The notes beneath the pieces are model-generated. The model had not been told where the DNA came from. It made no database searches and saw nothing but the letters and a program-made list of their open reading frames with translations. A DNA stretch of 64,000 nucleotides from the human T2T-CHM13v2.0 reference genome, Homo sapiens, in the NCBI RefSeq assembly GCF_009914755.1, contig NC_060936.1. The stretch is one strand, 5' to 3'. The position numbers were made by a program, and so were the translations under genes. Shown here one piece after another: positions 20,715 through 55,672 of the stretch; positions within the stretch are counted from its first letter, which is position 1; every line of letters starts with the position of its first letter.

Positions 20715-21260
20715 TGTCAACCTAAATAATGAGCTCTCTAAGAAATATGTTTATTTGCAAATAGAGCAACGCCTTGTGAATATGTGTGCCATGGTAAACT
20801 CTGTGCGTATTCAGGGAGGTAAAGGAAGACAAAGATTTTTTATGTTTTTTTAAAATTTTTTATTTTTAGAGACAAGGTCTCACTATGTTGCCCCAGCTGG
20901 CCTCGACTTCCTAGGCTCAAGTAATCCTCCCATGTCAGCCTTCTTAGTAGCTGGAATTACAGGCATGTGCCACTGCTGATAAAGGTTTTTAAAGGAAAAA
21001 ATGAGGAATACATAATCATTTTGAAATAATTATCCCTGGCTACAGAGACCAATAACAAGGGTGACACCAGTTCAAGGTTGGACAAGCAGTTGCTGTGCAG
21101 ATGTCCTTGCAGAAGTATTTTTTTTTGTGTGAGGTTGCAATGGCCTTTGTGCAAGGTTGTAGTTTTTGTAGTCTTTCATGATAGTTTTTACTATCAGGCA
21201 TCCTAGCCAGGAGAACCCTCATTTCGTGGCCTTCCCTGGTTCTGTTTGTAAAGGTTTTTT
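20715..21260 (-). mobile_element. ERV1 (MER4-group, MER84/MER72-like) solo LTR, main part
   Basis: Begins tgtcaacctaaat and includes tattcagggaggtaaaggaagacaaag and gatgtccttgcagaagta. Breaks off in a T tract at ~21255. TSD copy tagt at 20711-20714. Confidence 0.8.
20841..20977 (-). mobile_element. FLAM (Alu monomer) inserted in the ERV1 LTR
   Basis: Monomeric Alu. TSD gacaaagattttt (20828-20840) / gataaaggttttt (20978-20990), followed by AA. Confidence 0.85.
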
Positions 21261-21672
21261 AAATTTGTTTTTTTACTTTGAGCATTTTTTATTAATGTAT
21301 GGTTATTCATAACACAGCACGGTAAATAGAGATTTATGCTTTAAATGTTTAAACCTATATGCAATCTTTATATGTTTCCATATTCAGCCTTTATATACAT
21401 TTGGCAAGACTTTGCAAAAGCTGTCATTAGATAAGGATATTGAGTGCACAGGTTGCTGTTAATTCCAGTGGAAACAAAGTCTCTTAACTCATTTTTTTCT
21501 ACTTTGCTGATTTTCCAAACAATTGCATCTTTTTAAATTTCAAAATTATAATTTTGTTGACATTCAGAAATATTGACAATGCATGTAAAGGTATGCACAA
21601 TGCATAGAATATATTACAGCATGGAATGAAACTGCATATTCGTCTGCATTAATCTAATTATGCATATATATA
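21255..21672 (-). other. Non-L1 3' segment (putative 3' transduction) with AATAAA and poly(A) remnant
   Basis: On - strand it follows the L1 A7 tail. AATAAA (tttatt 21288-21293) lies 13 nt before an A-rich tract (21255-21274) that abuts the broken LTR. Confidence 0.75.
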
Positions 21673-21884
21673 TTTTTTTATTATACTTTAAGTTTTAGGG
21701 TACATGTGCACAATGTGCAGGTTTGTTACATATGTATACATGTGCCATGTTGGTGTGCTGCACCCATTAACTCGTCATTTAACATTAGGTTTATCTCCTA
21801 ATGCTATCCCTCCCCACTCCCCCAACCCCACAATAGGCCCCGGTGTGTGATGTTCCCCTTCTTGTGTCCATGTGTTCTCATTGC

Positions 21885-25714
<3,830 letters not shown>

Positions 25715-25774
25715 TATGATGTCAGCTGGTTATTTTGCTTAGTTGATGCAGTTTCTTCCTAGCCTCAGTGGTCT

Positions 25775-26781
25775 TCACAATTTGGCATGTTTTTGCAGTG
25801 GCTGGTACCAGTTGTTTCTTTCCATGTTTAGTGCTTCCTTCAGGAGCTCTTTTAGGGCAGGCCTGGTGGTGACAAAATCTCTCAGCATTTGCTTGTCTGT
25901 AAAGTATTTTATTTCTCCTTCACTTATGAAGCTTAATTTGGCTGGATATGAAATTCTGGGTTGAAAATTCTTTAAGAATGTTGAATATTGGCCCCCACTC
26001 TCTTCTGGCTTGTAGAGTTTCTGCTGAGAGATCAGCTGTTAGTCTGATGGGCTTCCCTTTGTGGGTAACCTGACCTTTCTCTCTGGCTGCCCTTAACATT
26101 TTTTCCTCCATTTCAACTTTGGTGAATCTGACAATTATGTGTCTTGGAGTTGCTCTTCTCGAGGAGTATCTTTGTGGCATTCTCTGTATTTCCTGAATTT
26201 GAATGTTGGCCTGCCTTGCTAGATTGGGGAAGTTCTGCTGGATAATATCCTGCAGAGTGTTTTCCAACTTGGTTCCATTCTCACTGTCACTTTCAGATAC
26301 ACCAATCAGAAGTAGATTTGGTCTTTTCACATAGTCCCATATTTCTTGGAGGCTTTGTTTGTTTCTTTTTATTCTTTTTTCTCTAAACTTCTTGCTTCAT
26401 TTCACTCATTTGATCTTCCATCACTGAAACCCCTTCTTCCACTTGATGGACGTGGCTACTGAGGCTTGTGCATTCATCATGTAGCTCTCGTGCCATGGTT
26501 TTCAGCTCCATCAGGTCCTTTAAGGACTTCTCTACATTGATTATTCTAGTTAGCCATTTGTCTAATTTGTTTTCAAGGTTTTTCACTTCTTTGCCGTGGG
26601 TTCGAACTTCTTCCTTTAGCTCAGAGTAGTTCAATTGTCTGAAGCCTTCTTCTCTCGACTTGTCGAAGTCATTCTCTGTCCAGCTTTGTTCCGTTGCTGG
26701 TGAGGAGCTGCGTTCCTTTGGAGGAGGAGAGGTGCTCTGATTTTTAGAGTTTCCAGCTTTTCTGCTCTGTTTTTCCCCCAT
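25775..26781 (-). pseudogene. L1 ORF1p remnant
   Basis: MGEKQSRKAGNSKNQSTSPPPKERSSSPATEQSW... and KRPNLLLIGV...RRATPRHIIVRFTKVEM, frameshifted. Confidence 0.95.
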
Positions 26782-27356
26782 CTTTGTGGTTTTATCTACC
26801 TTTGGTCTTTGACGATGGTGACATACCGATGGGGTTTTGGTGTGGATGTCCTTTCTGTTTGTTAGTTTTCCTTCTAACAGTCAGGACCCTCAGCTGCAGG
26901 TCTGTTGGAGTTCGCTGGAGGTCTAGTCCAGACCCTGTTTGCCTGGGTATCAGCAGCAGAGGCTGCAGAACAGCAGATATTGGTGAACAGCAAATGTTGC
27001 TGCCTGATCGTTCCTCTGGAAGTTTTGTTTCTGATGAGTACCTGGCCGTGTGAGGTGTCAGTCTGCTCCTACTGGGGTGTGCCTCCCAGTTAGGCTACTC
27101 GGGGGTCAGGGACCCACTTGAGGAGGCAGTCTGTCCATTCTCAGATCTCCAGCTGCATGCTGGGAGATCCACTACTCTCTTCAAAGCTGTCAGACAGGGA
27201 CATTTAAGTCTGCAGAGGTTTCTGCTGCCTGTTGTTTGGCTATGCCCTACCCCCAGAGGTGGAGTCTACAGAGGCAGGCAGGCCTCCTTGAGCTGTGGTG
27301 GGCTCCACCCAGTTCGAGCTTCTGGGCCGCTTTGTTTACCTACTGAAGCCTTGGCA

Positions 27357-27623
27357 ATGGCGGGTGCCCCTCCCCCAGCTTCACTGCTGCCTTGTAGTTT
27401 GATCTCAGACTGCTGTGCTAGCAATGAGCGAGGCTCCATGGGCGTAGGACCCTCTGAGCCAGGCGCGGGATATAATCTCCTGGTGTGCTGTTTGCTAAGA
27501 CCATTGCAAAAGCACAGTATTAGGGTGAGAGTGACCCGAATTTCCAGTTGCTGTCTGTCACCCCTTTTTTTGACTTGGAAAGGGAATTCCCTGACTCCTT
27601 GGCTGTTTTGCAGATCCACTTAA
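27357..27623 (+). CDS. ORF0: L1 antisense ORF0, open (88 aa), reads across the L1 5' junction; expression unknown
   Basis: MAGAPPPASLLPCSLISDCCASNERGSMGVGPSEPG... matches primate L1 ORF0. ATG context gcaATGG; TAA at 27621-27623 lies outside the L1. Confidence 0.6.
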   Translation: MAGAPPPASLLPCSLISDCCASNERGSMGVGPSEPGAGYNLLVCCLLRPLQKHSIRVRVTRISSCCLSPLFLTWKGNSLTPWLFCRST

Positions 27624-28268
27624 ACCCCTGTCTTCCTGCAGGGCATAACTTCACAAATACGTGTGGCGCAGACACAGAGTCCTAGAACATGTTTTGGGGA
27701 ATTGAAAATAGTTCCTTAAGACTGAGGTGTTCAGTGAGGAGGAAAGAAGGGCAAGGGATAAAACTTCATAGAAAATATCCACACTTGCCGTCTTTATTTT
27801 CTTTGGTTCAGTGCCTTAGTGAGTCAGGCTTTTGGACTGTAAACTTTGAATGGAAAGATCTAAGGCTGGGCATGCTTAAGTTTCAGACAAATCATCTGTC
27901 TTTGCTCCTTATGGTTCACACCTGGCATCTGTCAGCAGGGCTGCCTCCTTGGGATGCTGACTGGTGGTTACAAAAGAGAAGCCCCACAGCCTTTCATGAA
28001 ACAACTATATATCCCTGTATCATAGATCATAGAGAACCAAAATGTGTGGTTTAGGAAATGTCAAGCATGTTCAGGAATCTTAGACTTCATTCATTTGCCA
28101 TTAGTTGACATTAGATTGGTATTTCTTTGCCCACTATTGGCTCCTTGAAAACTGAATCCTAACTCTTAGAGCAGTGCCTGCACAGTCTTTCCATAAGGAT
28201 GAATTAATATGGGTGATGCAGCCACAAATTAGGCCTTTCAAATTTTTCAGCTGGTTTTTCCTCCAGAG
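27602..28268 (-). other. Apparently unique ~670-nt segment between the MST exon and the L1 (putative transduced non-coding exon(s))
   Basis: Lies inside the split LTR, so it is foreign to this locus. No L1 homology and no ORF in the track on -. Confidence 0.65.
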
Positions 28269-28405
28269 GGTGTCTGTAGGCTGTACAGGAAGCATGGCGC
28301 TAGCATCTGCTCAGCTTCTGGCGAGGCCTCAGGGAGCTTACAGTCATGGTGGAAGGTGAAGGCAGGAGCCAGGGTATCACATGGTGATAGAGGGAGCAAA
28401 AGAGC
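28269..28405 (-). mobile_element. MSTA/MSTB LTR fragment spanning approximately TSS to splice donor
   Basis: On -: gctcttttgctccctctatcaccatgtg...gtaagctccctgaggcctcgccagaagctgagcagatgctagcgccatgcttcctgtacagcctacagacacc. U3/TATA and the sequence after the GTGAG donor are absent. Confidence 0.85.
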
Positions 28406-28456
28406 TTTTTTTCTTTTAAACACTAGTAACTCCATTTTGGTTCTGAAACTTTCACA
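28406..28456 (-). mobile_element. Remaining terminus of the ERV1 solo LTR begun at 20715
   Basis: aacactagtaactccattttggttctgaaactttcaca, followed by tggt (28457-28460), which matches left TSD tagt with one mismatch. Confidence 0.8.
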
Positions 28457-34298: not shown

Positions 34299-34665
34299 CC
34301 ATAATGGTTTGGCAGTATCCCCACCCAAATCTCATCTTGAATAGTTCCCCATAATCGCCACATGTCATGGAAGGGAACTAGTGAGAGGTAATTTAATCAT
34401 GGGGGCAGTTACCCTCATGCTGTTCTTAGGACAGTGAGTTCTCATGAGATCTGATGGTTTTATAAGGGTCTTTTCTCCCTTTTGCTTGGCACTTCCTCTT
34501 GCTGCTGCCATGTGAAGAAGGACTTGTTTGCTTCCCCTTCTGCTATAATTGTAAGTTTCCTGAGGCCTCCCCAGCCATGCTGAACTGTGAGCCAATTAAA
34601 CCTCTTTCCTTTATAAATTACCAGTCTTGGGTATATCTTTAGCAGCATGAGAAGGGACTAATATA
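34299..34665 (+). mobile_element. THE1 solo LTR (MaLR)
   Basis: atggtttggc...ccccacccaaatctcatcttgaat...aactgtgagccaattaaacctc...actaatata. 5-bp TSD atggg (34294-34298 / 34666-34670). Confidence 0.93.
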
Positions 34666-35149
34666 ATGGGGAACTAGATATATAGACACAGTTCCCTTGT
34701 GGATCATACAGTCTAATTTTATAATGTAAGGAACCTGGAAATAGTTCCTTTCTCCATCAGCATCTTGCCTTTATTTTCCTTTTTTTATTTCTCAGATATT
34801 TTGTGAATACCTTCCATTAGCCAGATTCTTTTCTATGATGAACAAGACAGATAAGGGCCCCTTTCCTCTCGTAGGGTTTACCCTTCAGTGAGGAGAAAAG
34901 GAAAATAAACAAGTAAACCCAAAGCCCCAAGTTAATTACAGACTGTGACAATTGCACTGAAGTGAATAAACAAAGTAATGTGTGGAGAGACTGACTTCAA
35001 AGGGTGAAGGCTAGGCAAAGTTACTCATGAGGTGCCATCTGATGAGAAGTGATGGATGGAGGCCTTTGGGTCATGACTGGAACTGGGGTAGATTAGTGAG
35101 TCATCTGAGGCACACATGCCTTGGTGGAATACTACCTCTACTACTAATA

Positions 35150-54746: not shown

Positions 54747-55119
54747 TGATATGTTTTGGCTCTGTGTCCCCACTTAAATTTCACCTTGCATTGTAATCCC
54801 CAAAATCACCACGTGTCAAGGGCAGGACCAGGTGGAGGTCATTGAATCATGGGGCGGTTTCCCCTATACTGTTTTAGTGATAATGAGTGAGTATCACGAG
54901 ATCTGACGGTTTTTATAAGCGTCTGGCATTTCCCCTGCTTGCACTCATTCTCTCTCCTGCCGCCCTGTGAAGAGGAGCCTTCCACCATGACTGTAAGTTT
55001 CCTGAGGCCTCCCCAGCCATTGAAACTGTGAGTCCACTAAATCTCTTTTCTTTATAAATTACCCAGTCTCAGTTGGGTGTTCATAGCAGTTCATAGCAGT
55101 GTGAGAACAAACTGCTACA
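54747..55119 (+). mobile_element. THE1D-like solo LTR
   Basis: tgatatgttttggctctgtgtcccca...aactgtgagtcc...aactgctaca. 5-bp TSD atgac (54742-54746 / 55120-55124). Confidence 0.92.
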
Positions 55120-55672
55120 ATGACTAAGATAATTCAATATTGTAAAGATATCAGTTCTTCCCAAATTAACCCATATATTCAGTGTAATTCTAATCAAACT
55201 TTGTAAGAATATTTTGTGGTACTTGATTCTAAAATTAATACTAAATAGCAAATTGCGAAGAATAACAATGTGGGAGACTTGTCCTAGCAGATCTCAAAGT
55301 CTATTACACTTTAACAACGACCAGTTTGACCGATCAAAAAAACAGCCCAGAAGGAGATCCATGGGCGTATATGACAAAGGTTATCTTTAACATCAGTAGA
55401 AGGAAGGGGAGAGTATTTGATAAATTATGCTGAGACAAAAACTATTAAAAATTATGATGGGACAATTGGTTAGCCTTGTGTAAAAAAAGTACATTCTTAC
55501 CTCAAACTATGCACAAATAATTCCAGGCACACTTAAGTCCTAACTATGACATGAAAATATAAAGTTTTAGATGAAAATGTAGAAAAATACTTATATAACC
55601 TTAAAGTAGGTAAGAAATTTTCTCGAAATGCCACTAAAGGAATGAAGCATGGAAGAAGAGATTGATATTTTT

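What the first reader, a model, noticed from the sequence alone, without database searches (positions are those of the whole stretch)
28269..28405. MST fragment bounded like a first exon, with a possible cap-derived G
Seen on -: the fragment starts G-ctcttttgctcc right after the A-rich target and ends ...cctacagacacc, then switches to unrelated DNA. Known (recalled consensus): the MST start region is the CT tract ~25-30 nt after the TATA-like box, and the donor is CAGAACC|GTGAG. Reverse transcription of capped RNA often adds a non-templated 5' G. Inference: both ends match RNA-processing boundaries instead of random breaks, the strongest sign that this is a cDNA of a full-length spliced transcript. 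The intact THE1 LTRs in this window show the equivalent donor (aact|gtgag, ~34587 and ~55028).
Basis: partly seen in the sequence, partly recalled or inferred. Interest (0 to 1): 0.7.

Follow-up and report, generated by a model that had tools for sequence, protein, structure and literature searches.

The report
Fossil cDNA of LTR-driven lncRNA
This 136-base piece is the first exon of an old DNA copy of a spliced non-coding RNA whose later exons lie on chromosome 7; it likely records where a retroviral promoter started that RNA in an early primate germ line, likely down to the copied cap base, but the event is of a well-known kind.

Summary
On the minus strand, 28404-28270 is an MST-type LTR piece. 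It ends at the family's splice-donor position, and the next base starts a segment that on chr7 (C7:15146053) follows an intronic AG with no MST next to it. Three more segments map in order to C7:15.318 and 15.520 Mb, mostly at AG/GT edges. So 28405 to about 21264 is a processed retrocopy (K2P 0.18 to its parent) of a spliced RNA spanning at least 374 kb. A younger L1 interrupts its last exon. The insertion splits one ERV1-type solo LTR, whose other copies serve as empty sites. The G at 28405 is absent from 16 of 16 MST copies at that column, and the target A-run is followed by C in 7 of 7 host-LTR copies. The start lies a median 29 nt after the TATA-like box. A copied cap is my best reading of the G (about 0.7), not proven. 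The parent LTR was not found in 196 kb upstream, so its GT and its 5' base are untested. Known mechanisms; a clean example; modest interest.

The parts
28406..28456 (-). 5' half (51 bp) of the host ERV1-type solo LTR; ends in the T/A-run that was the insertion site (28420-28406, 5' copy of the probable target duplication)
   Evidence: Aligns above 200 shuffles to the start of 4 of 7 host-LTR copies; the other 3 do not match here
28405..28405 (-). Single G between target run and cDNA; likely copied cap
   Evidence: G in 0 of 16 MST copies at this column; run followed by C in 7 of 7 host-LTR copies
28270..28404 (-). Exon 1: MST-type LTR piece from the likely start site to the family's donor position
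   Evidence: parent LTR not located
28180..28269 (-). Exon 2 = C7:15146053-15146142 (+), AG directly before, GT directly after
   Evidence: 75 of 90 identical
28096..28179 (-). Unplaced segment, likely one more exon
   Evidence: Only a self match; inference from position
27801..28095 (-). Exon = C7:15318042-15318328 (+), AG 2 nt before, GT directly after
   Evidence: 79% over 295 columns
27690..27800 (-). Unplaced segment, likely one more exon
   Evidence: Only a self match; inference from position
27601..27689 (-). Start of a late exon = C7:15519578-15519666 (+), AG directly before
   Evidence: 74 of 89 identical
21675..27600 (-). Later, near full-length L1 with broken frames; about 485 bp of parent-matching DNA is missing at its site
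   Evidence: 91-93% to the 39 other copies listed; parent matches on both sides; frames
21422..21676 (-). Continuation of the retrocopy = C7:15520153-15520406 (+)
   Evidence: 82%
21264..21421 (-). 3' end of the cDNA: AATAAA at 21293-21288, A-rich tail remnant 21274-21264; parent counterpart not found
   Evidence: Sequence; no match in the next 6.7 kb of chr7
20715..21263 (-). 3' half of the host LTR, starting with a second T/A-run (21263-21255) and carrying an Alu; the LTR is bracketed by a 4-bp repeat with 3 of 4 bases alike

Best explanation
The fragment is the MST-derived first exon of a processed retrocopy of a spliced RNA whose later exons lie on chr7, likely made by L1 proteins from a full-length capped transcript, with the G at 28405 likely the copied cap. 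Shown: intron loss against chr7, MST end at the family donor position, insertion into a T/A-run of another LTR, a later L1 in the last exon. Inferred steps: (1) an MSTA-like solo LTR upstream of C7:15.146 Mb fired in germ line or early embryo about 29 nt after its TATA-like box; (2) its donor was spliced to cryptic exons spread over at least 374 kb; (3) L1 ORF2p nicked TT|AAAA in the host LTR on chr12, copied the RNA to its end and added one base opposite the cap; (4) an L1 inserted later with a target-site deletion. The copy lacks the LTR promoter and is likely inert.
For: Four segments map in order and on one strand to C7:15146053, 15318042, 15519578 and 15520153. AG lies directly before 2 of 3 located exon starts and 2 nt before the third; GT directly after 2 of 2 located exon ends; chance about 0.002 allowing 2 nt of slop at each edge. 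After the same column the 16 MST copies go on with GT (5), AT (8, plus 1 mapped one base off) or other (2); I read AT as CpG decay of the donor. Start is 26-36 nt after a TATA-like box in 14 of the 15 copies where my loose pattern found one, median 29. G in 0 of 16 copies (11 T, 5 C); C follows the run in 7 of 7 host copies. AATAAA 13 nt before an A-rich remnant. Extra G at full-length junctions: PMC11702581 (passage), PMC3287187 (passages). MaLR LTRs carry promoter, start and donor: PMC5538554 section 4; MSTA-initiated spliced oocyte transcripts: PMC6908575 (passages).
Against: The parent LTR was not found: in C7:14.95-15.15 Mb the two + strand MaLR copies are 71-72% alike and carry a different linked haplotype; the one copy of the matching type is on the wrong strand with 31 mismatches in 129. 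Four pattern searches showed no hit at C7:14-15.2 Mb, one of them listing only 100 of 893 hits. The target duplication is an A-run that cannot be fixed base by base. 3 of 7 host copies carry a G inside their run, so an A-to-G change could mimic the cap base. The donor after exon 2 is a weak one. Two inner segments and the last 150 nt are unplaced. No expression data were available.
Confidence: 0.7

Rival explanations
1. Same spliced retrocopy with an MST first exon, but the G is not the cap: a later A-to-G change at the end of the target run, a private base of the parent LTR, or a random base added during joining.
For: G occurs inside the run in 3 of 7 host copies; 16% of sites differ between copy and parent; 12-15% of truncated L1 and Alu insertions carry extra bases (PMC2912911 Table 4, passage).
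Against: No host copy has G at the last place of the run; 0 of 16 MST copies have G there; the G sits exactly at the junction expected for a start site. My rough estimate is a 0.1 chance of a G here without a cap, against 0.3-0.5 with one.
Confidence: 0.2
2. The cDNA is 5'-truncated: the RNA began farther upstream and reverse transcription happened to stop in the CT tract, so the MST piece is an inner or partial exon.
For: Parent LTR and real start sites not seen; the letters just before the G resemble the MST TATA-like box; a C could give 1 nt of microhomology.
Against: The box-like letters belong to the host LTR. A random stop within 5 nt of the expected start has a chance of a few percent at most (my estimate). 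MaLR LTRs are described as having a donor but no acceptor (PMC5538554).
Confidence: 0.07
3. MST piece, unique DNA and L1 moved together as one L1 5' transduction or L1 chimera.
For: The unique DNA abuts the 5' end of the L1.
Against: The parent match continues beyond the L1's 3' end; the parent has no L1 there; the L1 is 91-93% like its relatives while copy and parent are 84% alike.
Confidence: 0.02
4. A DNA-level deletion or template switch joined an unrelated MST piece to the unique DNA.
For: No parent LTR found upstream.
Against: The join falls on the family donor column and on the base after the parent's AG at once.
Confidence: 0.01

Closest known systems
L1 trans-mobilised processed pseudogenes (mRNA retrocopies)
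   Same: Introns lost, other chromosome, TT|AAAA-type site, poly(A) signal and tail remnant, extra 5' G as reported for full-length insertions (PMC11702581, PMC3287187, PMC4859970; passages)
   Different: The parent is a non-coding RNA (longest ATG-started frame 53 aa in 28405-27601; no Rfam match), so protein-based pseudogene catalogues would miss it; the RefSeq table shows no row here
MaLR LTR-initiated transcripts (LTR gives promoter, start and donor; e.g. MSTA-RHOBTB3 in oocytes, THE1B-CSF1R)
   Same: First exon runs from the CT tract to the conserved LTR donor and is spliced to downstream genomic exons (PMC5538554, PMC6908575, PMC6558280; passages)
   Different: Seen as a DNA fossil, not as living RNA; the parent LTR is not located
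HERV-W processed pseudogenes made by L1 (PMC5016936, PMC5537654; search listing only)
   Same: L1 copies of LTR-started RNA that lack the promoter part of the LTR (that feature recalled)
   Different: Here the LTR is spliced to host DNA, not to viral genes
L1 insertion with target-site deletion (PMC4859970, passage)
   Same: The inner L1 shows no duplication, ends at a T/A site of the parent and parent-matching DNA is missing at its 5' side
   Different: A secondary event; deletion size depends on whether a further intron lay there

Membership tests
Processed retrocopy (L1, in trans) | Introns of the parent removed at AG/GT edges | tested here: met
Processed retrocopy (L1, in trans) | Poly(A) signal and tail remnant at the 3' end | tested here: met
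   AATAAA 21293-21288, A-rich 21274-21264; parent 3' end not found, so the cleavage site is not fixed
Processed retrocopy (L1, in trans) | L1 endonuclease-type site | tested here: met
   T-run then A-run at the split point in host-LTR copies
Processed retrocopy (L1, in trans) | Target-site duplication | tested here: inconclusive
   TTT plus A-run at both ends (15 and 9 nt), no host DNA lost, but runs vary in length among copies
MaLR LTR-initiated transcript | First exon ends at the LTR donor | tested here: met
   Same column as the donor motif in 16 copies
MaLR LTR-initiated transcript | First exon begins at the LTR start site | tested here: inconclusive
   Spacing to a TATA-like box fits (the 28-31 nt rule is recalled); no CAGE or RACE position seen, Fig. 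1a of PMC6558280 is not held
MaLR LTR-initiated transcript | Parent LTR upstream on the same strand with GT after the match | tested here: inconclusive
   Not found in 196 kb upstream; farther DNA not read
MaLR LTR-initiated transcript | Expression in germ line or embryo | not testable with these tools
   Inferred only from the heritable insertion
Cap-derived extra G | G absent from the source | tested here: inconclusive
   0 of 16 family copies; the parent itself not seen
Cap-derived extra G | G absent from the target | tested here: met
   C follows the run in 7 of 7 paralogous empty sites and in the 3' copy; no orthologous empty site available
L1 5' transduction / L1 chimera | Upstream DNA and L1 of one age within one duplication | tested here: not met

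The most novel reading that the evidence does not exclude
The parent LTR and the RNA's 3' end are gone from the human genome, so this copy is the only record of an extinct germ-line lncRNA at least 374 kb long at DGKB-AGMO, with start base, cap and splice pattern frozen in early primates. Such orphan LTR-first-exon retrocopies, missed by protein-based catalogues, could be harvested genome-wide as a fossil start-site map of extinct MaLR promoters.
Probability: 0.35. Interest if true: 0.55.

Novelty: new member of a known kind. Interest (0 to 1): 0.35.

Why it matters
It is direct DNA evidence that an MST-type LTR donor was spliced to host exons in a heritable cell lineage at about the time that family spread, and it gives a likely start site at single-base resolution for an RNA nobody can sample today. 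Retrocopies of lncRNAs are described as under-catalogued (PMC12747553, passage). Each step is known biology, and nothing here suggests present function.

Tried and rejected
Parent LTR: read C7:14.95-15.15 Mb and aligned; three full MaLR copies, none convincing. The copy at C7:15052577 has a mismatch load (24 in 120) that does not exclude it; I reject it on two linked subtype marks shared with the other copies lacking a 4-nt segment. Pattern searches (82 hits, all listed; 2; 893, 100 listed; 70, all listed) showed none at C7:14-15.2 Mb; each had well under even odds of catching a parent this diverged. DNA upstream of 14.95 Mb and most of 15.15-15.52 Mb was not read. Unplaced segments: negative. 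Parent 3' end: not in the 6.7 kb after the parent's Alu. Idea that the letters before the G are a remnant of the MST TATA-like box: rejected, they are host LTR. Coding or structured RNA: rejected. Prior description: searches (0 papers; 0) listed nothing on this locus; DGKB/AGMO look-ups in supplements of PMC6558280 (2 files; one RACE peak at chr7:14.28 Mb) and PMC5538554 (11 files searched, file 1 not searchable; two MLT1K rows in AGMO) gave nothing on this RNA. Earlier scan findings were not available.

Full report
Observation. On the minus strand the window reads A-rich run (28420-28406), G (28405), a 135-base repeat piece (28404-28270), then unique DNA. The piece matches many genomic copies at 81-87%. 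Its motifs are those I recall for MSTA-like MaLR LTRs; no repeat library was at hand.

The parent. The unique DNA matches chr7 in order on the + strand: 28269-28180 to C7:15146053-15146142, 28095-27801 to 15318042-15318328, 27689-27601 to 15519578-15519666, and, beyond an L1, 21676-21422 to 15520153-15520406. These searches showed no other copy. AG stands directly before the first and third match and 2 nt before the second; GT directly follows the first and second. From local dinucleotide frequencies this has a chance of about 0.002 with 2 nt of slop per edge. The parent spans at least 374 kb. Two inner segments (84 and 111 bp) are unplaced; most of the interval where they should lie was not read.

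The 3' edge of the fragment. The boundary is 28270|28269. At that column 16 MST copies (13 top hits, so biased towards likeness, and 3 local chr7 copies) continue with the donor motif: GT in 5, AT in 8 plus 1 mapped one base off, other in 2. I read AT as CpG decay. A conserved donor near the 3' end of MaLR LTRs is described in PMC5538554 (section 4 and passages).

The target. Both flanks are halves of one LTR of ERV1 type (type recalled). The 3' flank matches 39 other copies at 78-86%; the 5' flank aligns above shuffles to the start of 4 of the 7 copies fetched, while the other 3 do not match there. The element has its own 4-bp flanking repeat with 3 of 4 bases alike. The cDNA landed 51 bp in, at a T-run/A-run. 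TTT plus A-run occurs at both ends (15 and 9 nt), which fits a duplication but cannot be fixed base by base. This also explains why the letters before the G look like the MST TATA-like box: they are host LTR.

The 5' edge and the G. The first base lies 26-36 nt after a TATA-like box in 14 of 15 copies where a loose pattern found one (median 29; one copy 19, one none), the spacing I recall for polymerase II starts. The base before it is T in 11 and C in 5 of 16 copies, never G. In 7 of 7 host copies and in the window's 3' copy the run is followed by C. So the G is templated by neither family. An extra G at full-length junctions is reported and ascribed to the cap: most full-length insertions in PMC11702581, three de novo and about 33% of genomic SVAs in PMC3287187, also PMC4859970 and PMC2912911; all seen as passages. 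Against: 3 of 7 host copies have a G inside the run, and 12-15% of truncated insertions carry extra bases. My estimate, an inference, is about 0.7 for the cap.

The missing parent LTR. In C7:14.95-15.15 Mb there are three full MaLR copies. The two on the + strand (15132378, 15052577) are 71-72% alike and share two linked marks that the window lacks; the third has the window's type but lies on the - strand with 31 mismatches in 129. Four pattern searches gave no local hit (one search listed 100 of 893). The LTR is farther upstream, which would be inside the gene whose diacylglycerol-kinase first coding exon lies at C7:14,974,2xx on the - strand (Pfam E 1e-4, just under the curated cut-off; name DGKB recalled), or it has been lost. 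Its GT and its 5' base are untested.

Order and age. Copy and parent differ at 107 of 671 sites (K2P 0.18), close to MST copies among themselves (mean 82.5%, 78 pairs). With recalled rates of 1.2-2.2e-9 per site per year this is roughly 40-75 million years. The L1 is 91-93% like its relatives, is absent from the parent and has parent-matching DNA on both sides, so it came later; about 485 bp of parent DNA is missing at its 5' side, less if a GT-AG intron at L018:1623-2060 had been spliced out. The 3' end has AATAAA 13 nt before an A-rich remnant; the parent match stops at an Alu and the last 150 nt were not found in the next 6.7 kb.

Function and novelty. The longest ATG-started frame in 28405-27601 is 53 aa, Rfam gives 0 matches, the copy lacks the promoter part of the LTR and RefSeq lists nothing here: likely inert. 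MSTA-started spliced RNAs are known in oocytes (PMC6908575, passages) and MaLR starts in lymphoma (PMC6558280, passages). PMC3836709, PMC1794541, PMC13447663 and PMC4805607 (passages) added nothing on start position or on this locus. Searches found no description of this locus; the library lacks most subscription papers, figures were not visible, and one supplement of PMC5538554 could not be searched. Verdict: real, correctly read, a new member of a known kind; interest 0.35.

Noticed in passing
window 21675-27600 (-); L018:1590-2075: The L1 has no flanking duplication, ends at a T/A site of the parent and about 485 bp of parent DNA is missing; a possible GT-AG intron at L018:1623-2060 would shrink the deletion to about 50 bp.
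   Followed up: partly
L018:2330-2540 (C7:15.5204 Mb): The parent match stops at a truncated Alu and the poly(A)-signal region is not found downstream: possibly an Alu-linked deletion that removed the RNA's 3' end.
   Followed up: partly
L046 (C13:32.06 Mb): An MST-type LTR breaks off just after its TATA-like box and joins the A-run of the same host-LTR family; cause not examined.
   Followed up: no
L021:4205-4291 (-), C7:14,974,2xx: First coding exon of a diacylglycerol kinase (DGKB, name recalled). The parent RNA runs away from it and its late exons fall in the AGMO region, likely antisense (strand recalled). The interval is recalled as a fasting-glucose association locus.
   Followed up: partly
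window about 34330-34670 and 54750-55120 (+): Two THE1-type solo LTRs with intact GT donors at 34587 and 55028.
   Followed up: partly
window 20836-20973 (-): A partial Alu inside the 3' half of the host LTR: four nested layers here (LTR, retrocopy, L1, Alu).
   Followed up: no
window 26900-27600: The L1 5' UTR points its antisense promoter region (recalled feature) towards the retrocopy's 5' exons, so antisense read-through is possible; untested.
   Followed up: no
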